DNA of 64,000 nucleotides from a bacterium (GTDB taxonomy: Bacteria; Oederibacteriota; JAJYGY01; DAIDJD01): NCBI GenBank assembly GCA_035485275.1, contig DATHOE010000034.1:93677-157676 (forward strand), written 5' to 3'. Under the pieces are notes generated by a model. That model was not told the DNA's origin. It did not search any database and worked only from the letters and a program-made list of their open reading frames with translations. A program made the translations under genes and the position numbers. Below, in pieces: positions 34,740 through 62,775 of the stretch (the stretch's first letter is position 1; every line of letters starts with the position of its first letter).

Positions 34740-35894
34740 TCACGCAGCCGGCCCTCTAACGGGGGCTGCCGGCCGCCTTTGTGGCATAGAAAGCATGCAT
34801 ACGAACATCAGGAGGATCGTGGGAAAATTCTGGAGGATGATCGTTCTGTCATAGTCGCTGAACCAGCCCAAGCGATACAGGGCTATTTGGGCGTAACACA
34901 ATCCCGTCAGGGCCAGCGCCAGCGCCGCATGCCATTTGGAAGCGATGCCGTCGCGGAACAATAGCGCCAAAGGGAAGATGAAGCTAAGCATGTCATATTC
35001 CCCGTGGTAGACCACCAGCAGCGTCCAAATGACGAAAATCGAGAAAGTCGCGAGGTCGTCGAGATCGCCCCTCCGCACCCGCCGTACCATCGCGACAAAG
35101 GTGCCCGCCTGAAAGAGCAAGACAAGCGCTTTGGACTGCCATAGCCGGGGGTAGAGCGATAAAACGGCGTTGACGTCGGTGTCCCCCAATGCCGAGGCAT
35201 TTCTCAAGGTGTGAACATATTCCGTCACGAGGTTCCAGGGCGTCGTGGCGAGCCAGGTACTTGAAAATACGATGAGAATCCCATGGAGGGTCAAAGCAAG
35301 ACCCACCGGGGCATATAGCCCCAGGCACGCCATCCATAAAAGTCCGGGCAATGTGAAGGTCCATTTCAGCAGCGAGAACTGGAGCGCGATGGCGGCCCAT
35401 AACGGATGTTTTTTCAGCGCCAGCTCGTATCCCATCAAAAATAAGCCCAAGGCGAACAGGGTTTGCTGCCCATCCCCAATGTCCTCACGCCAGGGCCTCG
35501 AGGCGTAGACGAGCAATGAGAAAACCAGGAATTTGTCCAAGGGAATGCGGTTCAGCCAGCGTCTTCGGATCATCCAAAAAATGTATACGGTCATGCATAA
35601 TTTAGAGAAGAGCCAGATCATTTTTGCGGGCGTCCAATCCAAGGCCGCCAGCGGCCACAGACAAACTAGGCTGGCCGGCGAGTAATAGTGGAGACCGTCA
35701 CCCCCCCATTCCGTTTCGATCTTCAACCACGCCGGCCCAGAATGGTACGGATCTATGTGCTGGAGCAATAGACGGGATTCACACCAGGCTGAATCGTGGC
35801 TGAAAGCTACGGCATTCTTGACGTTCCAAACCGTTACGGCCAGAAAAAGAACCGCGAGCAAGGCCCGCGTTGGGGTCCAATGAAATCGAAGCAA
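34740..35894 (-). CDS. polytopic membrane protein, putative GT-C-type glycosyltransferase (DUF2029/GT87-like)
   Basis: 384 aa, about 10 TM helices; assignment from hydrophobicity pattern and context only. Confidence 0.45.
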   Translation of the reverse strand: MLRFHWTPTRALLAVLFLAVTVWNVKNAVAFSHDSAWCESRLLLQHIDPYHSGPAWLKIETEWGGDGLHYYSPASLVCLWPLAALDWTPAKMIWLFSKLCMTVYIFWMIRRRWLNRIPLDKFLVFSLLVYASRPWREDIGDGQQTLFALGLFLMGYELALKKHPLWAAIALQFSLLKWTFTLPGLLWMACLGLYAPVGLALTLHGILIVFSSTWLATTPWNLVTEYVHTLRNASALGDTDVNAVLSLYPRLWQSKALVLLFQAGTFVAMVRRVRRGDLDDLATFSIFVIWTLLVVYHGEYDMLSFIFPLALLFRDGIASKWHAALALALTGLCYAQIALYRLGWFSDYDRTIILQNFPTILLMFVCMLSMPQRRPAAPVRGPAA

Positions 35895-36093
35895 TTCAAA
35901 TCTCCCGGACGGAACCCGGGACCTAGTCTCGGGTAAACAATGGGGCGGATACGCGCCAAAAATGATTTTCCCTCTGTATTATTTCATTGTGTCTTAAAGG
36001 TAGCTCAGAGGCAAGAGGCCCAACCCTCGTGGGCACTCCTTAGGCCATTATGCTGCGCTTAATGCTTGGATCCAGGGATTGTAAGGGCTCGAC

Positions 36094-45824: not shown

Positions 45825-46169
45825 AATTCAACCCGCTCCGAACATGCCCCGATCCGGGGCGTAAGGGTTTCCTTGGCCCGGCGTCATTGCCGTATTTTGG
45901 CCCAAATGGCGGGCAAAGGGGCAGGCCCCCTCTTGCCTTAATCGCCCAAGCCAAGCCCGGCCGAACACAAGGTGCCGCTATTCTTGGCTGAACCGGCCTA
46001 GCTTAACACGTGGCCCAGTCCGAATCCTCTAGTTTTTTTCGTGGATTCGGCGAACCGTTGCAGGTCCCAACTACGTTGCATCCGAACTAGGATACGCATA
46101 TTGAGATTGAAATCCCGGACTGCGCCTGAGATAAAAGCCGCAAGCCCCGCGCACGGAGGACCACCGATC

Positions 46170-47045
46170 ATGCCGAAACTTAAATTCGTCCGGGAGTTCC
46201 TTAAGAAAATCTCACCAGTCTGGAGCTTCTTTCGATTCCTCAAACACAGGGTTTTCCTGCCGCTAGTGCAGCGCAGCACTTTGAACGTCCTCGAAACGTT
46301 TCCGGTCTGTGCGCCGGCTGGGGCGGGGGGCTACGGGCCGAGGGCCGAGATCACGATCCGAGGCATTAACCAGCTTCTTCCGGGCTTATATTCGTTAGCG
46401 ATTTTGAACGGGGCAAAAGGGATAGAGCCGCGGTCTGCGGAAGGATGGCCGTTTCCTGAGGGAGATTTGGAAACCATAAAGGCTTTGGAGGCCTGCCTGG
46501 CGAAATTTGGAACAAGAAAGGATCCGCCGTACCTCAGGCTTTACGGGCACATTTTTAAAGACAGGGAACAAATAGAAACGGTTCTGGAAATCGGGATCGG
46601 ATCGAATAACCCCAGCATCGTCTCAAATAACCTGGGGAGCGCGGCGCCCGGCTCCACGCTTCGTGGCCTCAGGGATTTCCTTGGCGGCGCCCGGATTTAT
46701 GGGGTGGATGTGGATACCGACATTCTATTCACAGAGGACCGCATTCAAACCTATTTTGTAGACCAGACGGATCGGGCCTCCCTGGAGGCTCTGGGCCGGG
46801 AGCTGCCTGACGCCTTTGACCTGATCATCGACGACGGACTACTTGCGCCTGTGGCGGATCTGCCAACATTGAATTTCTCACTCGCGCGCCTCCGGATTGG
46901 GGGATGGCTGGTGGTGGAGGAAATTCCTGGTCGGGCCCTTGTTTTCTGGAAGGTCGTAGCCACGATGCTGGCTTTGTCGTTTAAAGCGACCATTCTCTCC
47001 AATGATGATGACAGTCTTATTTTTGTGGTCGAAAGAAAATACTAA
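46170..47045 (+). CDS. hypothetical protein, methyltransferase-like Rossmann fold (lower-GC gene)
   Basis: VLEIGIGSN ... RIYGVDVD ... LIIDDG pattern; ATG at 46170 (residue 44 of ORF 46041). Confidence 0.5.
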   Translation: MPKLKFVREFLKKISPVWSFFRFLKHRVFLPLVQRSTLNVLETFPVCAPAGAGGYGPRAEITIRGINQLLPGLYSLAILNGAKGIEPRSAEGWPFPEGDLETIKALEACLAKFGTRKDPPYLRLYGHIFKDREQIETVLEIGIGSNNPSIVSNNLGSAAPGSTLRGLRDFLGGARIYGVDVDTDILFTEDRIQTYFVDQTDRASLEALGRELPDAFDLIIDDGLLAPVADLPTLNFSLARLRIGGWLVVEEIPGRALVFWKVVATMLALSFKATILSNDDDSLIFVVERKY

Positions 47046-47108
47046 ATCAGGTATTGGGGCGGGGCCTGTTCCGCCAGGGGAGTCACCGTAAATGGCCCCG
47101 GTACCTTG

Positions 47109-48491
47109 TTAAGCCGGCCACCTTTTTGATCCACTCGAAGTCAAAATTTTCCAAATGAACGCGGTGAGTAAAAACAAAAAAAGAGGATAGTAAATACCTG
47201 AGCCATAGAAATATGGCACCGGAATACCAATCATCTCAATGCAAATAACACATATCGTAAAATAAAATTTGAGTCTCTTGTCGGAAAGGCTCAACATATT
47301 CTTCAATACCCACGGCAGCAACGCGATGACCCAGAACAGTCTGATCATCCAGGTGAACGGTGCGCAAAAAAGCGTGATGAGTATTCCGAAGTAATAGAAA
47401 GTCAATGTGGGATCCAGGAAATCCGGAGATGTTCCACGTGCGAAAAAAAAAGTCAGAGCCCACAATAGCAGCGGGGTGAAAATCATAATTAATAGTCTGG
47501 AGATATGTAAACGCGATGCCATTTCTCGGGTGCCTGATCCGTTTGAGTTCTGGTCCATGAGCCCGCTGTCGTCATATATAACTCCATCGATGGTGTTTAT
47601 GGAGTCGGGCCAAGCCCGGGAATATATTTGGATTTCCCTGGAGCTTAACGACTGATTTTCACTCCCCAATTCTTCCGATTGGAAAATACGGCCCAAACGA
47701 TGCATGAAATAATCTTGGTTTACCGAAATGCCGTCCAAAGCGAGGCTGCTTCCAAAAAGCACGGCTACACCTAACAGGAATCCAACTAAAGTTGGACGCC
47801 AGCGCGTTAAGAATATTCCGGGCATGAACAAAAGGGTGTCCAGTTTTAGGAAGGTGGCCACCGCAAGGCAGGCCCCTAATGCGCAATGAGCCCAATTTTC
47901 TTTGAATCGACAGGCCAGAAAAAAACCCATGGTAATGACAAAAAATGTAATTCCGTCGATATTTGCTGCTTCGATCTGGGAGACTGTGGGGTAAAACCAA
48001 AAAGCGGTACCCAATACCGCGAACATCGGAAACAAAAATATGTCCAGCCACACGACATAGGTTGCCGCCGCAATCGACGCGACAATGCATGAAAAAATTA
48101 AAAGCGTCCAAATCAACTTGGCGCGGGCATACCTAAAATAAGTGAAAGGAACAAACAGTCTTGCCGTCAATGGGGGCAATAAAAAACCGCTGTTGGCGAA
48201 CGAGCTATAATCCCAGGTGCGGATGTCTTTCGCCATATTGTTGTCATAGGGAGAATATCCATCCCTCACGGAGAATCCGGTGCTATAGAAATCAAAAAAA
48301 TCACCTTGTGGGCCATGGGCGACTAGATGGCAGGTCCAGCCGGAAATCCAGATAAGTCCGCTCAAAAAATAGAGCATCATTAAGATTTTAAGTTTTCGTG
48401 GCGCTCTTTCCACTGATACTCCCTGTCGCGTATGTTTTTCCTTCCTTAGACCTTGGACCCAGTGCCGGATGCTCGGGTTGGCGTCACGCAT
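47109..48491 (-). CDS. polytopic membrane protein (lower-GC), putative GT-C/DUF2029-like or polymerase
   Basis: 460 aa, many TM helices, Phe/Trp/Tyr-rich; visibly AT-richer than flanking genes; start uncertain. Confidence 0.5.
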   Translation of the reverse strand: MRDANPSIRHWVQGLRKEKHTRQGVSVERAPRKLKILMMLYFLSGLIWISGWTCHLVAHGPQGDFFDFYSTGFSVRDGYSPYDNNMAKDIRTWDYSSFANSGFLLPPLTARLFVPFTYFRYARAKLIWTLLIFSCIVASIAAATYVVWLDIFLFPMFAVLGTAFWFYPTVSQIEAANIDGITFFVITMGFFLACRFKENWAHCALGACLAVATFLKLDTLLFMPGIFLTRWRPTLVGFLLGVAVLFGSSLALDGISVNQDYFMHRLGRIFQSEELGSENQSLSSREIQIYSRAWPDSINTIDGVIYDDSGLMDQNSNGSGTREMASRLHISRLLIMIFTPLLLWALTFFFARGTSPDFLDPTLTFYYFGILITLFCAPFTWMIRLFWVIALLPWVLKNMLSLSDKRLKFYFTICVICIEMIGIPVPYFYGSGIYYPLFLFLLTAFIWKILTSSGSKRWPA

Positions 48492-50608: not shown

Positions 50609-52114
50609 GTGGCCCAGCAGGCCCCGGTCACTGGCATGCGCGGCGCGGCGGTCCAGGGCGCGTTCTGGAGCATCGCCTTGGCCGTCGGCAATAAGGCCGT
50701 GACCACAGTGGGGCAGGTCGCGCTGGCTTGGTACCTTTTCCCGCGGGACATGGGGATCGTCGCGATGGCGGCCTCGGTGGTGGCGCTGGCCACTTTCTTC
50801 ACGGCCAGCGGCATCGACGACCTGCTGGTGCAGCGCCACGACTCCTATGAGCAGGACGCAACCCAGGTATTTTGGCTGTCCCTTTGTTTCAATGTCGTCG
50901 CGATGGCGGTCGCCGTGGCCTTGATCCCCTTCGCGGTCCGGCATTTCGGGGACGGGCGGGTGGGCCGCCTGATGCTCATCCAGGCGGCGAGTTGGCCGGT
51001 CTCCACCGTCACGCTGGTGCTCCGCCCGCAATTGGCCAATGTCCTGCGCTTCAAGGCCATCGCCGCGATCCGGCTCGGGGAGGGCGTGGTATTCACCGGC
51101 TGCGCGGTTTTTCTGGCCGCCCAGGGTTGGGGGCCCTACGCGCTCGTGTGGCCGACCCTCTTCTCGGCGATCTTTTCCGCCGCGGCTTTTTGGTGCCTGG
51201 CGGACAGGCCGCCCATGGGCTGGCCCAAGCCGGTTTCCTGGCCGGCCTACATCACCCCCGGCCTTCTGTTGATGGTGGGCAACTTCGTGGGGGTGATGGC
51301 GATCCAGATGCCGAACTTCATCATCGGAAGCCTGATGGACGCCCGCGGGACCGGCCTCTACGCCTGGGGCTACCTGGTGGCATCCCAGGCGATCTTCTTG
51401 CTGGTCCTCAATCTCCGCGGTTTGTTCACGCCGTTGTTTTCAAAACTGAAATCCGAGCCGGAGCGCCTGGCCAAGGCCACCGCGCAGGCCGCGTACGCCA
51501 TCACCGCGGTGGTCGCCCCGATATGCGTCCTGCAGGCGTTTTTCGCCCGTCCCCTGATCGAGACTTTTTTTCCGGCGCGCTGGACGGACGCGGTGCTGGT
51601 GGTGTACTGGCTGAGCCTGGGCTTTTGCGCCCAGCCGGTCGCCTTGATCACGCAGGCCGCCCTGATCGCGAAGGCCAGGTTCGGCCTGGCCTTGAGGCTG
51701 GCCCTGCTGCAGGCCGTCCTGGGGGCCCTGGGGGTGGCCTGGGGATGCCTCAAGAGCGGCATCGAGGGCGCGGCCGTGGGCGCGGCGGTTAGCGCCGTCC
51801 TATGCCTCCCGCTCAACCTGTGGATACTGCGCGGCGAGGTGGGCTGTTCCTGGCTCCGCTTGTTGGACGCGCCCAAAGCCATCCTATTCGGCGCCCTGGC
51901 TTTCCTTCCGTCGTGGGGGATCTTTTGGGCCTTCGGCGGCGCCTACCATTGGTGGTCCAACGCGGCGGAGGGCGTCGCCTACTGCGCGGTCCTGGCCCTG
52001 GTCTACAGGCTTTTCGACCCAGGCATGTTCGATGAACTCTCCGGATTGAGGTCCCTGATGCGGGGCGCCCCGGGGAAGCTTCCAGACCTTTCAAGGGGGG
52101 AGCAGTGCCCCTGA
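50609..52114 (+). CDS. Wzx-like flippase / polysaccharide biosynthesis protein (MOP family), second copy
   Basis: About 500 aa, 12-14 TM helices; GTG start 2 nt after gmd stop. Confidence 0.7.
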   Translation: MAQQAPVTGMRGAAVQGAFWSIALAVGNKAVTTVGQVALAWYLFPRDMGIVAMAASVVALATFFTASGIDDLLVQRHDSYEQDATQVFWLSLCFNVVAMAVAVALIPFAVRHFGDGRVGRLMLIQAASWPVSTVTLVLRPQLANVLRFKAIAAIRLGEGVVFTGCAVFLAAQGWGPYALVWPTLFSAIFSAAAFWCLADRPPMGWPKPVSWPAYITPGLLLMVGNFVGVMAIQMPNFIIGSLMDARGTGLYAWGYLVASQAIFLLVLNLRGLFTPLFSKLKSEPERLAKATAQAAYAITAVVAPICVLQAFFARPLIETFFPARWTDAVLVVYWLSLGFCAQPVALITQAALIAKARFGLALRLALLQAVLGALGVAWGCLKSGIEGAAVGAAVSAVLCLPLNLWILRGEVGCSWLRLLDAPKAILFGALAFLPSWGIFWAFGGAYHWWSNAAEGVAYCAVLALVYRLFDPGMFDELSGLRSLMRGAPGKLPDLSRGEQCP

Positions 52115-53370
52115 GAATATCCGCGGCCCTGCTGTACGCGGTCGCTTTCATGGCCCAATACCATTTTTTGATGGTCCCCCATTTCGGCTATTGGGGCTTC
52201 GGGGACCTCAGCGGCGTCCTGGAGTGCCTTTATCTTCTGCCTTTGATGGTGGCGCCGGCCCTGTGCATGCCCGAGCGGATCGACCGCCCGTCGGCGCTGT
52301 TCGCGTTTTTGAACTACACGATCATCTATGTGCCCGTCTGCGTGCTGCTGTTCCATTCCACGCTGACGTCGATCAGCCTCGCGGACCAATGGGCGATATT
52401 GATCGCCTTGGCCGCCAGCACTGCCTTGCTCTTTGAGGTCCCGCGTTTGCCCTCCATCCCCCTGCGCCGGGGCAGGCTGAGCGGGGGCGCGATTCTGGCT
52501 GCCTGCTGGTGCGTGCTGGGCGCGGTGGTGCTGATGACCCTCGCCGTCAACAGGATCGGGTTCTTCGGGTTCAAGGGGATCGGAGCCGCCAGGGCCGCCT
52601 ACACGGAAAATATCCGCCCTCTGGGCCCCTATTTCGGGTACTTCGACGCCTGGTGCGGCCTGGCGATCATCCCTTTCCTGTTCGTGGTCTGTTTAAGGAA
52701 AGACCGCCGCTGGGGCTGGCTGCTCCTGAGCGCGGTGTGCGTGCTGCTGTTCATGACCTCGGGGCGCAAGACCGCCCTGCTCACGCCCTTGGCGGTTTTG
52801 GGCAGCTATTTCGGGGTGAAGAAGGGTCTCAGGACCCCGGCGCTTTTGTTCGTGTTTTCGGGCCTCTTGCTGGTCCCCTTCGTCTTCGGGGCCCTCGGGC
52901 TCTCGGGCCCCCGCGACCTATACTACAATGTCATCAATTTCAGGATCTTCGCGGTGCCACAGATCCTTATCCCGCAGTATTACAGCTATTACCTGGCCAA
53001 CGGATTCACCCACTTCCGCAGCATCAATGTGGTCAACCGGTTTTTCTTTGGAGGGGCGGCGTTCGAGCAGCCCTGGGCCGCCATCGCCCGCTTCTATTAC
53101 AAGAAAAAATTCACGGCCGATGCCGTGTTCTATGCGACCGACGGCCTGGCGGCCTTGGGCATCGTGGGGATCCCCTGCGTGACCGCGGCTTGCGTTTTGG
53201 TTTTTTGGATCTTTGATTCCCTGCAAAAGGGGCATTCCGCGCTGTTGATGCTCCCCTGCATGATGCCCTTCCTTTTTTCGTTGTTCAACAATTCGCTGTT
53301 TACTACGATGCTCACCGGCGGTGGCTTCGTGCTGATGGCGCTGTTCTATCTGCTTCCGGATACCGCGTGA
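52105..53370 (+). CDS. polytopic membrane protein, putative Wzy-type polymerase
   Basis: 421 aa, about 10 TM helices, follows Wzx-like gene with overlapping start. Confidence 0.5.
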   Translation: MPLRISAALLYAVAFMAQYHFLMVPHFGYWGFGDLSGVLECLYLLPLMVAPALCMPERIDRPSALFAFLNYTIIYVPVCVLLFHSTLTSISLADQWAILIALAASTALLFEVPRLPSIPLRRGRLSGGAILAACWCVLGAVVLMTLAVNRIGFFGFKGIGAARAAYTENIRPLGPYFGYFDAWCGLAIIPFLFVVCLRKDRRWGWLLLSAVCVLLFMTSGRKTALLTPLAVLGSYFGVKKGLRTPALLFVFSGLLLVPFVFGALGLSGPRDLYYNVINFRIFAVPQILIPQYYSYYLANGFTHFRSINVVNRFFFGGAAFEQPWAAIARFYYKKKFTADAVFYATDGLAALGIVGIPCVTAACVLVFWIFDSLQKGHSALLMLPCMMPFLFSLFNNSLFTTMLTGGGFVLMALFYLLPDTA

Positions 53371-60498: not shown

Positions 60499-60578
60499 CT
60501 TTGGGCCGTTTTCGCCGTATCCTTAAGGTGGGTGAAGAAAAGACTTTGGACGTCGGGCAAGGCCTTTGGGGGAAAACC

Positions 60579-61889
60579 ATGACCATGATGCGAGCCACGA
60601 TTCTGGGCCTCCTTTTGGCGGGCCTGCCTCCCCTGTGCGCGCAGGGCGCCCAGCACGCTTGGGGAGGCGTCCAAAGCGGGGGCGCCCCCCGCCAGGCGGC
60701 CCCCGCGCGGCAGCCCCTGGTCATCAATATGGGCCGGCCCAGCAGCGGCTACGCCCGCAATTTCCCCTCCCAACAACGGGCCCAGGCGGCCCCTGCGGCG
60801 CGGCCCTCCTGGGGCCACGTCAACTGGTCGGCGTCGGTCTCCGGCCGGGGGGCGATGCCCGGCCGCTCATACGGCGCGGCGCAGCCTCGCACAGCCCGGC
60901 CCTCCGCCTCGTCCTGGGCCGGTTCGGCCTTCGGCGGGCTGCGCCCGGCAGCGGGAACGCGCATGGCCGTCGCCCGCCACCACCATCCTTACACCCAGGG
61001 CTATGTGCGCCACAAACTGCGCACCCTGGGCGTGACCGCGGAACCCAGCCTGATCACCGACCGCTCGGAGATGCTCCACACCGACGCGGCGCATTCGACC
61101 ATCCGCTACCCCACACGGGGGCCCCAGGGCGCGGCCCTGCCCACGCGGCGCCTGAATCCGGCCCAGGCCTCGGACGCGGCGCTGGTGCGCGCGCACATGG
61201 GCAGGGTGGACGATCCCGGCTGGCGGGCCAACGTGGAAAGCTACAACAGCATCGAGAACAGGCCGGGACACTACTATTGGCACAAGGACAACGGCTTCAA
61301 CTATTGCCATTACCTCGACGCTTCCGGCTATCAATGGTACGGATGGTACCTGGGGGACGGATTCTTTTGGACCCGGGATTTCAACGGCCGCTGGTGGTGG
61401 TATGACCAGGCGGACGCGCGCTGGGACTTCTATAACGACAATTTTTGGTGGTGGCAGGACCCGGACCACGTCGGCGACCTGTATTGCTACAACGACGGGG
61501 CCTACATACCCGTCAATTCGGCCGAGGACCAGATCGTCGTGAGCCAGCCCGACACCACGGACTACCAGACCTTCACCAGCCCGGACGGCAGCCGCGAGGT
61601 GAAGCTGGTCGCCGGAGGCTCGGACGCCTTCCTGTACGACACCGCGGTGCCGCCCTCATTCGACCCCGTGTACCTGGCCTCAGGCGTGCAGAGCGTGCAG
61701 TTCTCGGACACCAGCAACGGCCGGCCTTTGGAGATCGTGCTCAGGCTCGACGACGGTTCCTTCGACCTCTTCGACGCCCAGGGCCAGGCCTATGGCCCGG
61801 GCAACAACGACACGGACGCCGCGAACTATGAAAGCGGCGACGGCTCGGCCCCGGGGGACACCATCCCCTCCCAGCCGGTCAATCCCTGA
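60579..61889 (+). CDS. secreted hypothetical protein with disordered Ala/Pro/Arg-rich region and Trp/Tyr-rich repeat domain
   Basis: ATG at 60579 preceded by GGGGGA; signal peptide MTMMRATILGLLLAGLPPLCAQGA; aromatic block with RWWWYDQ / NFWWWQD. Confidence 0.6.
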   Translation: MTMMRATILGLLLAGLPPLCAQGAQHAWGGVQSGGAPRQAAPARQPLVINMGRPSSGYARNFPSQQRAQAAPAARPSWGHVNWSASVSGRGAMPGRSYGAAQPRTARPSASSWAGSAFGGLRPAAGTRMAVARHHHPYTQGYVRHKLRTLGVTAEPSLITDRSEMLHTDAAHSTIRYPTRGPQGAALPTRRLNPAQASDAALVRAHMGRVDDPGWRANVESYNSIENRPGHYYWHKDNGFNYCHYLDASGYQWYGWYLGDGFFWTRDFNGRWWWYDQADARWDFYNDNFWWWQDPDHVGDLYCYNDGAYIPVNSAEDQIVVSQPDTTDYQTFTSPDGSREVKLVAGGSDAFLYDTAVPPSFDPVYLASGVQSVQFSDTSNGRPLEIVLRLDDGSFDLFDAQGQAYGPGNNDTDAANYESGDGSAPGDTIPSQPVNP

Positions 61890-62775
61890 GGCGGGCGGGG
61901 TAGCGGCCCGCCCGGATGAGCTCCGCGAGGCCGGCGGCGACCAGGGCCTTGTCCTCGCGGTAGGTGATCCCGAACCAGGCGTCGCTTGAGGGCAGCACCG
62001 TGACCTCGGCCCGGCCGTCCTTGACCAGGCCGTCCACGACCCCGGGCACGTAGAGCTCGCCCTTCGCCAGGAGCTCCTCCCGCCGCAAAAAGGCGTCAAA
62101 GGCGCGGCCGAGGTGGCCGAAGATCGAGGGCGTGAAGCCGAAGAAGTTCATGGAGACGGTCTCGCGGCCGCTGAAGACGGCGCCGCTGACCTGGTCGCGC
62201 GCGCCTTCGGGCGTTTTCTCGATCTTGAGGGTTTCGACCACGCCGCGCAGCTTCCCGCCCTCCACCGCGCAGATGCCGCGCGACACGGTGCCGTGCTCGC
62301 TGAGCGTGGCCTTGAGTTCGTAGCCGACCATGCAATAGTCCGCCAGGGCCCCGTCCTTGGCCGCCCGGAGGCGCCGGGCCATGGCGTCGAAGCCCTGGCG
62401 TCCGTAGAAGTCGTCGGCGTTGACCATGGCGAAGGGCTCTTGGATGAGGCCCTCGGCCATGAGCACCGCGTGGCCCGTGCCCCAGGGTTTTTCCCGGCCC
62501 TCCGGCCGCTTGAACCAGGCCGGGGTCTTGTCCAGCTCCTGGTAGGCGTAGTCCACGGCTATTTTTTTCTCGAAGCGGCTCCCCAGATCCCTTTTGAAGG
62601 CCTCCGCGAAATCCGGGCGAACCACGAAAACGGCCTTGCCGAAGCCGGCCCCCACCGCGTCATGGAGCGAATAGTCCAGCAGGGTCTCGCCGCCGGGGCC
62701 CACGGGATCCATCTGTTTCAGGCCCCCGTAGCGGCTTCCCATGCCGGCTGCCAGGATCAGGAGGGTGGGCTTCAT
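61879..62775 (-). CDS. sugar-phosphate nucleotidyltransferase
   Basis: N-terminal LILAAGMGSRYGG nucleotide-binding motif; about 298 aa. Confidence 0.7.
   Translation of the reverse strand: MKPTLLILAAGMGSRYGGLKQMDPVGPGGETLLDYSLHDAVGAGFGKAVFVVRPDFAEAFKRDLGSRFEKKIAVDYAYQELDKTPAWFKRPEGREKPWGTGHAVLMAEGLIQEPFAMVNADDFYGRQGFDAMARRLRAAKDGALADYCMVGYELKATLSEHGTVSRGICAVEGGKLRGVVETLKIEKTPEGARDQVSGAVFSGRETVSMNFFGFTPSIFGHLGRAFDAFLRREELLAKGELYVPGVVDGLVKDGRAEVTVLPSSDAWFGITYREDKALVAAGLAELIRAGRYPARLRD

What the first reader, a model, noticed from the sequence alone, without database searches (positions are those of the whole stretch)
60579..61889. Secreted protein with an extreme Trp/Tyr-rich repeat block
After a signal peptide and a disordered Ala/Pro/Arg/Ser-rich region, about 80 residues contain roughly 11 Trp and 10 Tyr in degenerate repeats (DFNGRWWWYDQ, FYNDNFWWWQD), plus two Cys. 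I do not recognise this as a named domain; it may be a carbohydrate- or membrane-binding aromatic module. It lies just outside the polysaccharide locus.
Basis: seen in the sequence. Interest (0 to 1): 0.5.

Follow-up and report, generated by a model that had tools for sequence, protein, structure and literature searches.

The report
Unnamed tryptophan-packed domain in exported protein
This is a real, strongly conserved gene for an exported protein of uncultured peat and soil bacteria; its tryptophan/tyrosine-packed block is a self-contained, unnamed domain that most likely binds something, but the ligand and the function are unknown.

Summary
ORF 60579-61889 (+) encodes a 436-aa protein with a Sec-type signal peptide. 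One 80-residue stretch (aa 230-309) holds 11 Trp, 12 Tyr and 6 Phe, the most extreme in the window.

No Pfam, NCBIfam or PDB-sequence match exists for it or for 120 aligned relatives.

It belongs to a family of at least 339 clusters. Almost all come from candidate division FCPU426 MAGs, with 1-6 scattered copies per genome and no conserved neighbours.

The Trp module is portable. In 29 Elusimicrobiota protein clusters it sits in front of a caspase domain, where sibling caspases carry Ank, Sel1, PDZ or WD40 modules. It is also the most constrained part of the gene (dN/dS 0.09).

Best reading: a non-enzymatic recognition or adhesion module. Whether the ligand is glycan, peptide or the protein itself is unresolved. 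It is a new domain family of unknown function, of moderate interest.

The parts
60579..61889 (+). Complete gene (436 codons plus stop) for the exported three-module protein
   Evidence: Translation. The identical 436-aa gene call is found on ENA ERZ27253678 k141_388256 and Logan SRR7093796. 273 homologues. dN/dS 0.26 against the 73%-identical homologue.
60568..60573 (+). GGGGGA, a Shine-Dalgarno-like purine run 5 nt upstream of the ATG
   Evidence: Read directly from the sequence. Inference only.
60579..60647 (+). Sec-type signal peptide (aa 1-23, MTMMRATILGLLLAGLPPLCAQG|A), no lipobox
   Evidence: Homologues align with K/R plus a hydrophobic core plus small residues.
60648..60953 (+). Basic, low-complexity, length-variable linker (aa 24-125; net charge +11 here, mean +8.5 in 31 homologues)
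   Evidence: Alignment A1. Low pLDDT. Charge analysis. dN/dS 0.32.
60708..60776 (+). Conserved motif 1 inside the linker (aa 44-66, consensus RQPVVINMxRPSSGGHNRNFPSQQ); aa 47-50 are predicted as a beta-strand
   Evidence: I49 is invariant; P46, P63 and Q65 are at least 90% conserved. Strand 47-50, with block pLDDT of about 85.
60804..60827 (+). Conserved motif 2 inside the linker (aa 76-83, PSWGHVNW; consensus PSYGxLxW)
   Evidence: P76 and G79 are at least 90% conserved.
60954..61163 (+). Conserved His-rich segment (aa 126-195; HHHPYTQGYVRHKLRTLGV...ITDRSEMLHTD..HS), mostly extended with one short helix
   Evidence: H134, Y138, Y142, L147, G151, V152, P156, I159, R162, S173 and P178 are invariant. 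pLDDT 80-95. DCA pair M165-L202.
61164..61253 (+). Two helices (aa 197-210 and 213-225) immediately before the aromatic strands and modelled together with them
   Evidence: Both models. DCA pairs E226-H235 and N223-D267.
61254..61526 (+). Trp/Tyr-rich module (aa 226-316): nine short beta-strands (232-237, 240-246, 252-258, 261-268, 271-276, 281-286, 289-293, 301-305, 308-311). Net charge -9. This is the block the finding is about.
   Evidence: Counts. W253 and W273 are invariant, and W234, W264, W282, W290 and W291 are at least 97% conserved in 121 sequences. pLDDT 89-98. dN/dS 0.088. Found fused to caspases.
61527..61802 (+). C-terminal beta module (aa 317-408): eight strands, interpreted as about two propeller-like blades, with an SPDG motif. 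Net charge -10.
   Evidence: The propeller matches were obtained with the whole model and are absent for the Trp module alone. Occurs as three tandem copies in P0200. dN/dS 0.137.
61803..61886 (+). Acidic, variable low-complexity tail (aa 409-436)
   Evidence: Alignment. pLDDT 40-56. Charge.
61879..61889 (.). 11-nt overlap of the 3' ends of this gene and the convergent NTP_transferase gene (61879-62775, minus strand)
   Evidence: The same 11-nt overlap is seen in the relative's locus, L083 5080-5090.

Best explanation
The gene encodes an exported, non-enzymatic, modular binding protein. It belongs to a lineage-restricted paralogous family, mainly of candidate division FCPU426.

Proposed sequence of events and layout:
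- After Sec export and signal-peptide cleavage, the protein has two halves. One is a basic, largely disordered N-terminal arm with two conserved short motifs and a His-rich segment. The other is an acidic folded head made of two modules.
- The Trp/Tyr block is the first module. It is a self-contained alpha/beta domain of two helices plus nine beta-strands. Conserved aromatic side chains occupy both alternating positions along every strand.
- If the strands form one sheet with the helices packed on one face, which I infer but could not check, that face is the domain core. The other aromatic face must then be covered by a partner.
- I propose that this second face is the working surface. It would be an aromatic stacking platform, flanked by conserved Asp, His, Arg and Gln, that recognises a polymeric ligand. 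My first choice of ligand is a glycan of the cell envelope or of plant or peat origin.
- The C-terminal module, which I read as two propeller-like blades, would add a second binding or oligomerisation surface. The basic arm would tether the acidic head, either to anionic envelope polymers or back onto the head.

Shown: export signal, module boundaries, predicted secondary structure, portability, conservation and purifying selection.
Inferred: sheet topology and helix packing, the binding role, the exposed aromatic face, the nature of the ligand and the role of the arm.
For: - Signal peptide present, without a lipobox or any known anchor.
- No catalytic family or motif detected in this protein or in 120 aligned relatives.
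- Confident models. Full length: pLDDT 80, pTM 0.78, above 90 for aa 150-400. Trp module alone: pLDDT 89, pTM 0.81. Both give the same two helices plus nine strands.
- Aromatic residues are at least 92% conserved at both alternating positions along the strands.
- The Trp module has the lowest dN/dS in the gene, 0.088.
- The module is portable. It occurs alone with a Pro/Ala tail (P0284). It also occurs N-terminal to a Peptidase_C14 caspase in 29 clusters, most of them with a signal-peptide-like N-terminus and those that are named assigned to Elusimicrobiota. Sibling caspases carry Ank, Sel1, PDZ or WD40/PD40 modules instead. Variable accessory domains are known for orthocaspases (PMC5756287).
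- The C-terminal module is separable too: three tandem copies in P0200.
- Paralogues are scattered, up to 6 copies per genome, with no conserved neighbours. This is typical of stand-alone surface or binding proteins.
- A charge dipole is conserved in 31 of 31 members.
Against: - No ligand evidence of any kind.
- No fusion to a glycoside hydrolase, lyase or esterase was seen, which would be expected of a classical CBM.
- The slot the module occupies in caspases is otherwise filled by protein-binding modules. That favours a peptide or protein ligand, or self-association, over a glycan.
- I could not obtain model coordinates. The sheet topology, the helix packing and the exposure of the second aromatic face are therefore inferred from strand alternation, not measured.
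- The conserved aa 126-195 segment, or a second subunit, may cover that face.
Confidence: 0.45

Rival explanations
1. The Trp module is a protein- or peptide-binding or homo-oligomerisation module. Its free aromatic face would pack against a second copy, or clamp proline-rich (PPII) segments. That would drive self-assembly of the FCPU426 proteins and proximity-induced activation of the secreted caspases.
For: - In the caspase family it replaces Ank, Sel1, PDZ and WD40 modules, which are protein-binding modules by established knowledge of those families.
- Both alternating strand positions are aromatic, so a partner is needed to bury one face.
- Two-blade propeller fragments are known to assemble into closed propellers (PDB 6r5x and 6r5y appear among the matches).
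- The C-terminal module occurs as three tandem copies in P0200.
- Pro/Ala-rich segments directly follow the module in P0284 and in the caspase fusions.
- The conserved basic-arm/acidic-head dipole would favour head-to-tail contacts.
Against: - No multimer prediction or experiment could be run.
- Pro-rich linkers are common in secreted proteins of GC-rich bacteria, so they carry little weight.
- The conserved polar residues between the aromatics (D247, D276, R266, R281, Q293, D294) fit sugar binding equally well.
Confidence: 0.3
2. The aromatic residues are purely structural, forming a hyper-stable Trp-zipper-like core suited to acidic peat. Function would then lie elsewhere, for example in a metal site formed by the conserved histidines (HHH at 134-136, H172, H235, H244) and acidic residues.
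For: - H134, H235 and H244 are invariant in the 31-sequence alignment (H235 and H244 stay at or above 93% in 121 sequences), and H135, H136 and H172 are at least 90% conserved.
- About 7 His lie in aa 126-225 across the family.
- The Cys are dispensable: 21 of 121 members have none, so stability must come from packing.
- By established knowledge, cross-strand Trp pairs stabilise beta-hairpins.
Against: - About 36% aromatic residues on both alternating positions of nine strands is far more than two helices can bury.
- The module works without the His-rich segment in P0284 and in the caspase fusions.
- No metal-binding family was matched.
Confidence: 0.12
3. The module is a membrane- or lipopolysaccharide-interface binder. 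Trp and Tyr would partition into the outer-membrane interface and the basic arm would bind anionic lipid A or LPS.
For: - By established knowledge, Trp and Tyr prefer membrane interfaces.
- Basic N-terminal arm.
- The upstream divergent neighbour is a DUF374 protein, conserved in the closest relative. DUF374 is a family I recall, untested here, as linked to lipid A/Kdo loci.
Against: - The Trp module is strongly acidic, net -7.5 on average, which disfavours binding to anionic membranes.
- The neighbourhood is not conserved across 80 other loci.
- There are no amphipathic or transmembrane beta-barrel features. The strands are only 4-8 residues long.
Confidence: 0.08
4. It is not a real protein, only a chance ORF in GC-rich DNA.
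For: GC-rich DNA produces many long spurious ORFs, and several overlap this region.
Against: - Hundreds of homologues at 43-92% identity, with invariant residues.
- dN/dS 0.26 overall and 0.09 in the Trp module.
- Confident structure prediction.
Confidence: 0.01

Closest known systems
Choline-binding / cell-wall-binding repeats (Pfam CW_binding_1, e.g. LytA and clostridial toxin CROPs) and glucan-binding YG repeats
   Same: Secreted. Short aromatic-rich beta-hairpin units of roughly 18-20 residues. By established knowledge, ligand binding there is through stacked Trp and Tyr.
Type-A carbohydrate-binding modules (e.g. CBM2, CBM3, CBM5/12), which have planar aromatic strips
   Same: Small, non-catalytic, portable beta-rich module with conserved Trp and Tyr flanked by polar residues. 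Extracellular.
   Different: No Pfam CBM hit. The only chitinase sequence hits are insignificant, E 0.6-1.7. No CBM appears among the listed fold matches. Never seen attached to a carbohydrate-active enzyme in the hits examined.
Beta-propeller blades (PD40/TolB-like, WD40) and two-blade fragments that oligomerise
   Different: No PD40 or WD40 sequence match. Global TM-scores are only 0.09-0.16. One chain cannot close a propeller. The Trp module on its own is not propeller-like.
Accessory domains of bacterial orthocaspases (Peptidase_C14 with WD40, TPR/Sel1, Ank, PDZ and others)
   Same: The Trp module occupies the accessory-domain position in 29 Elusimicrobiota caspase clusters. Variable accessory domains are a known feature of orthocaspases (PMC5756287).
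   Different: The window protein has no caspase domain. In that review the accessory domains are described as commonly lying C-terminal to the catalytic p20 domain, and this Trp-rich domain is not mentioned in the passages I read. Here the module is N-terminal and most of these proteins have a signal-peptide-like N-terminus.
Aromatic-cradle peptide binders (WW, SH3, GYF, EVH1) - from my own knowledge, as an analogy for how it might work
   Same: Small beta-rich modules in which conserved Trp and Tyr bind proline-rich PPII peptides. Pro-rich segments flank the Trp module here.
   Different: No sequence or fold match was obtained. This module is much larger (about 90-120 aa) and far richer in Trp. 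Not tested beyond the Pfam scan.

Membership tests
Choline-binding / cell-wall-binding repeats (CW_binding_1 and CW_binding_2) | Match to the Pfam repeat profile in tandem copies | tested here: not met
   hmmscan against Pfam gives 0 families at E<=10 for the protein. The family is not among those matched in the scan of all 121 aligned sequences.
Choline-binding / cell-wall-binding repeats (CW_binding_1 and CW_binding_2) | Statistically detectable tandem sequence repeat of about 20 aa forming a solenoid | tested here: not met
Carbohydrate-binding modules (any Pfam CBM family) | Sequence or fold similarity to a known CBM | tested here: not met
Carbohydrate-binding modules (any Pfam CBM family) | Occurrence appended to carbohydrate-active catalytic domains | tested here: not met
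   The only fused catalytic domain found is Peptidase_C14. Only the best 150 of 339 clusters could be inspected.
Carbohydrate-binding modules (any Pfam CBM family) | Demonstrated glycan binding | not testable with these tools
   Needs glycan arrays, pull-downs or ITC on recombinant protein.
PD40 / WD40 beta-propeller repeats (C-terminal module only) | Match to the repeat profile | tested here: not met
   No PD40 or WD40 hit for the protein, for the isolated C-terminal module or for the triple-copy P0200 at E<=10, nor in the scan of all 121 aligned sequences at E<=1. A profile search of PDB sequences found nothing.
PD40 / WD40 beta-propeller repeats (C-terminal module only) | Four-stranded antiparallel blades arranged around an axis | tested here: inconclusive
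Orthocaspase (Peptidase_C14) family | p20 catalytic domain with a His-Cys dyad | tested here: not met
   No Peptidase_C14 match in the window protein. Only distant relatives of the Trp module carry it.
Outer-membrane beta-barrel or lipoprotein | Lipobox, or long amphipathic transmembrane strands with a C-terminal aromatic residue | tested here: not met
   No lipobox. Strands are 4-8 residues long. The C-terminus is ...SQPVNP.
The unnamed family itself (FCPU426 three-module proteins) | Signal peptide, motif RQPVVINM..., HHHPY segment, Trp module with WWWQDP, and C-terminal SPDG...DAFLYD module | tested here: met
   All blocks are present and aligned in the window protein, at 43-92% identity to 120 listed homologues.

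The most novel reading that the evidence does not exclude
The Trp/Tyr block founds a new family of portable extracytoplasmic recognition domains whose fold is not represented among solved structures. It would use a wall of invariant tryptophans as a stacking platform for a polymeric ligand. Candidate ligands are a glycan, or aromatic and phenolic polymers abundant in peat. It is shared between a paralogous surface-protein family in FCPU426 and secreted caspases of Elusimicrobiota. That would make it effectively a new binding-module family, and possibly the targeting device of extracellular bacterial caspases.
Probability: 0.25. Interest if true: 0.6.

Novelty: new variant of a known kind. Interest (0 to 1): 0.4.

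Why it matters
- FCPU426 and Elusimicrobiota are uncultured, poorly understood lineages of peat and soil. A conserved, multi-copy, exported family with no annotation is a candidate for how these cells interact with their surroundings or build their envelope.
- The Trp module is one of the most Trp-dense globular domains I know of: 14% Trp and 36% aromatic residues over 80 aa. It has no convincing structural relative in the PDB. An experimental structure would therefore probably add a new fold variant and perhaps a new binding-module family.
- Its fusion to secreted caspases gives a handle on what extracellular bacterial caspases recognise.
- If the aromatic residues turn out to be merely structural, the finding is an ordinary domain of unknown function.

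Tried and rejected
1. Pfam and NCBIfam scans of the protein, and a Pfam scan of 121 family members and of the isolated C-terminal module, found nothing recurrent.
2. Sequence and profile searches of PDB chains with the whole protein, the Trp-module profile and the C-module profile found nothing below E 0.05. The best hit is low-complexity.
3. Internal sequence repeat test: not above composition-matched shuffles. 'Repeat family' is rejected as a sequence-level claim.
4. Conserved gene neighbourhood: none of the window's neighbours recur near 80 homologous loci, and no family recurs next to the homologues beyond generic regulators. An operon-based functional inference is therefore rejected. Only the closest relative keeps the DUF374 and NTP_transferase flanks.
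5. Link to the polysaccharide locus: rejected, because the locus is absent next to the closest relative.
6. The AFDB Foldseek library was unavailable.
7. The profile search with the Trp-module alignment in the word-indexed database scored only 140 candidates and returned only proteins of 106-219 aa, mostly truncated calls. It was of little use apart from P0284.
8. Disulphide hypothesis: the four Cys positions are not conserved together and 21 of 121 members have none. Rejected as essential.
9. Paralogues inside the window: none.
10. The promoter and terminator scan was uninformative.
11. Mean-field DCA recovered hairpin and inter-segment contacts consistent with the model. It cannot report on the invariant Trp positions.
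12. Literature searches found no description of this family.
Full report
**1. The observation**

The ORF list shows a 497-codon frame starting at GTG 60396. The ATG at 60579 gives a 436-aa product beginning MTMMRATILGLLLAGLPPLCAQGAQ. Independent gene calls on two public assemblies that carry exactly this protein use the same start. These are ENA ERZ27253678 contig k141_388256 (268.5 kb) and Logan SRR7093796. Homologues also align from that methionine.

The protein has 16 Trp and 23 Tyr. Residues 230-309 contain 11 Trp, 12 Tyr and 6 Phe, and Cys are at 20, 243 and 303. Among all 159 six-frame ORFs of at least 150 aa in the window this is the extreme. It has 23 W+Y per 80 residues against 13 for the next ORF, with a binomial P of about 1e-16 on the window's own amino-acid background.

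The N-terminus has the features of a Sec signal peptide and no lipobox. By a simple heuristic, 92 of 101 full-length homologues look the same and only one has a lipobox-like motif.

Two details need correcting:
- The 'degenerate repeats' are not a significant sequence repeat once composition is controlled. The best internal alignment scores 38 against 37.2 +/- 6.6 for shuffles.
- The N-terminal 'disordered' part contains conserved elements (section 3).

**2. It is a real, selected gene of an unannotated family**

- The word-indexed search found 273 homologues at 43-92% identity. All are 'hypothetical protein' and none carries a Pfam domain.
- The exhaustive HMMER scan of 1.84 billion cluster representatives found 339 clusters at E<=1e-3 and 104 at E<=1e-30.
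- Pfam and NCBIfam give no hit at E<=10 for the protein.
- A Pfam scan of all 121 aligned sequences gives no recurrent family.
- PDB sequence searches give nothing significant, whether with the protein or with profiles of the Trp module and the C-terminal module.
- Against the gene of the 73%-identical relative, Nei-Gojobori dN/dS is 0.26 overall. By region it is 0.32 in the linker, 0.32 in aa 126-225, 0.088 in the Trp module and 0.137 in the C-terminal module. The Trp block is thus the most constrained part of the gene.

**3. Anatomy**

From the alignments and the models, the protein consists of:
- a signal peptide (aa 1-23);
- a length-variable, basic, low-complexity linker (aa 24-125) with two conserved short motifs, RQPVVINMxRPSSGGHNRNFPSQQ (aa 44-66, with a predicted strand at 47-50) and PSYGxLxW (aa 76-83);
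- a conserved His-rich segment (aa 126-195, HHHPYTQGYVRKKLQKIGV...ITDR.EIIHTDR.HS);
- two helices (aa 197-210 and 213-225);
- nine short strands (aa 232-311) that carry the aromatic residues;
- eight further strands (aa 319-399) with the motifs SPDGTRxVK, DAFLYD and DGSFDxFD;
- an acidic, variable tail.

Conservation in 121 sequences: W253 and W273 are invariant. W234, W264, W282, W290 and W291 are at least 97% conserved. Aromatic residues are at least 92% conserved at both alternating positions of essentially every strand.

The Cys are not essential. C243 is present in 94 of 121 members, C283 in 69, C303 in 31 and C312 in 20, and 21 members have none of the four.

A charge dipole is conserved in all 31 sequences examined (the window protein and 30 homologues). 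Mean net charges are +8.5 for the linker, +4.5 for aa 126-225 (plus about 7 His), -7.5 for the Trp module, -8.3 for the C-terminal module and -4 for the tail.

**4. Structure**

The full-length AlphaFold2 model, built on 121 sequences, has mean pLDDT 80.1 and pTM 0.78, with block-mean pLDDT mostly above 90 for aa 150-400. The Trp module modelled alone (aa 196-318, 60 sequences) has pLDDT 89.4 and pTM 0.81, with the same two helices and nine strands.

A mean-field DCA on 306 sequences (Neff 231) recovers contacts consistent with the model:
- hairpin pairs V387-L397, L246-Q252, W256-F263 and F284-L301;
- helix-to-strand pairs E226-H235 and N223-D267;
- the pair M165-L202.

Fold searches gave the following:
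- Foldseek against the PDB gives one hit below E 1e-3, with TM-scores of 0.09-0.16, so there is no global match.

I conclude that the propeller-like signal most likely comes from the C-terminal module. It has eight strands, which I read as about two blades. The Trp module has no convincing relative among solved structures.

I had no access to the coordinates. The sheet topology, the packing of the helices and the burial of individual residues are therefore inferred, not measured.

**5. Distribution and context**

A scan of one genome per GTDB species confirmed 88 stretches encoding a relative, of which 80 were kept as loci, from 45 assemblies. The largest share of the records is labelled candidate division FCPU426; the rest are metagenome-assembled genomes from the same kinds of surveys with generic labels or labels of other phyla. 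There are 1-6 copies per assembly, with 22 assemblies holding at least two copies and one holding six. No paralogue lies in the window.

The neighbours here are as follows:
- upstream of the gene: a GT4 glycosyltransferase, an Acyl_transf_3 gene and, adjacent and divergently transcribed, DUF374;
- downstream: a convergent NTP_transferase gene that overlaps the 3' end by 11 nt, then PanD.

The closest relative with context (P0002) keeps DUF374 and the overlapping NTP_transferase but has unrelated genes beyond them. None of the window's neighbours recurs at the 80 other loci, and no family is consistently adjacent.

The region 38.7-59.6 kb is indeed a polysaccharide locus. It encodes Glycos_transf_4, GT1, DegT, GT2, GT87, GDP-mannose dehydratase, a flippase, a beta-helix protein, GT4 and an acyltransferase. 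The gene is not functionally tied to this locus.

**6. Modularity**

The Trp module is portable:
- P0284 (217 aa, on a 136-kb contig) is the Trp module followed only by a Pro/Ala tail.
- P0263 and P0268 carry the module N-terminal to a Peptidase_C14 caspase domain.
- A search with P0263 shows 29 clusters with this architecture, most of them with a signal-peptide-like N-terminus. Those with names are called 'caspase family protein [Elusimicrobiota bacterium]'.
- Sibling caspases, about 57% identical in the catalytic domain, carry ankyrin, Sel1, PDZ or WD40/PD40 modules instead.

Variable accessory domains are a recognised feature of orthocaspases (PMC5756287).

The C-terminal module is also separable. 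P0200 consists of three tandem copies of it.

**7. Interpretation**

What is shown: this is an exported protein without any detectable catalytic domain. It is built from separable modules, and the most constrained one is an aromatic-packed alpha/beta domain. That domain is re-used in the position where related proteins carry recognition modules.

What I infer: the Trp module is a binding module. Conserved aromatics occupy both alternating positions along every strand. If the strands form a single sheet, two helices can cover only one face of it. The other aromatic face must then be covered by a ligand, another part of the chain or another subunit.

- My preferred reading is a stacking platform for a polymeric ligand, with a glycan as first choice. 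The conserved Asp, His, Arg and Gln among the aromatics fit this. The basic arm would act as a tether. Confidence 0.45 for the binding-module explanation as a whole. The glycan part alone is weaker.
- The main rival is protein or peptide binding, or homo-oligomerisation (0.3). It is favoured by the company the module keeps in caspases, by the two-blade C-terminal module and by the adjacent Pro-rich segments.
- Lesser rivals are a purely structural aromatic core with a His-based metal site (0.12) and membrane or LPS-interface binding (0.08). The latter is disfavoured by the strongly acidic module.
- A spurious ORF is excluded.

**8. Comparison with known families**

- It works like aromatic-platform binding modules such as choline-binding repeats and type-A CBMs, but it fails their membership tests. 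There is no profile match, no significant tandem repeat, no fold match among the listed hits and no attachment to carbohydrate-active enzymes.
- The C-terminal module resembles two propeller blades but matches no PD40 or WD40 profile.
- I found no paper describing this family. FCPU426 itself is known only from surveys and a few MAG and single-cell studies (PMC7031533 and PMC10434106).

**9. Verdict**

This is a genuine, previously unnamed domain family with a striking composition and no known function. I rate it a new variant of a known kind, namely secreted non-catalytic aromatic binding modules. Interest is 0.4. It is eye-catching and structurally new, but at present it is a domain of unknown function among many in uncultured lineages.

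Noticed in passing
window 61879-61889; L083 5080-5090: The 3' ends of the target gene and of the convergent NTP_transferase gene overlap by 11 nt, with no room for a terminator. The same overlap is kept in the 73%-identical relative's locus.
   Followed up: partly
window 14000-50000, especially 46001-48000: GC content drops from about 0.65-0.74 in the flanks to 0.55-0.63 across the polysaccharide region. The minimum is 0.50 at 46-48 kb, over a GT87-like gene and an ORF without a Pfam hit. This may indicate a horizontally acquired cassette.
   Followed up: no
window 38741-59569: Polysaccharide biosynthesis locus confirmed by Pfam: Glycos_transf_4, GT1, DegT aminotransferase, GT2, GT87, GDP-mannose 4,6-dehydratase, Polysacc_synt_3 flippase, an 828-aa right-handed beta-helix protein, GT4 and Acyl_transf_3. 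ORFs 46041-47045 and 52105-53370 have no Pfam hit.
   Followed up: partly
window 60648-61886 (protein aa 24-436) and 30 aligned homologues: A conserved charge dipole. The disordered N-terminal arm is basic (mean +8.5, then +4.5 with about 7 His). The Trp module, the C-terminal module and the tail are all acidic (-7.5, -8.3 and -4).
   Followed up: partly
P0263, P0268, P0290-P0315, P0379 (metagenomic proteins); L086 16-1677: The same Trp-rich module sits in front of a Peptidase_C14 caspase domain in 29 clusters, most with a signal-peptide-like N-terminus and the named ones assigned to Elusimicrobiota. Sibling caspases carry Ank, Sel1, PDZ or WD40/PD40 modules instead. This suggests a family of extracytoplasmic caspases with swappable recognition domains.
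   Followed up: partly
P0200 (303 aa, metagenomic protein): This protein is made of three tandem copies of the C-terminal SPDG...DAFLYD module after a Pro-rich leader. If each copy is two blades, it could form a six-bladed propeller.
   Followed up: no
window 34743-35978 (minus strand): The second most Trp-rich ORF of the window (8 Trp in its richest 80-aa stretch, 412 aa). Not examined; it may be a membrane protein of the polysaccharide region.
   Followed up: no
window 1-64000: No tRNA gene (ARAGORN) and no Rfam family at gathering threshold anywhere in the 64-kb window.
   Followed up: yes
L001-L080 (GTDB species representatives): Several genomes that hold the family are labelled 'uncultured proteobacterium', 'Spirochaetota', 'Fibrobacteria', 'Firestonebacteria' or 'Brevinematales' in their records. 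They share this otherwise FCPU426-restricted family, so these are probably imprecise taxonomic labels of MAGs.
   Followed up: no
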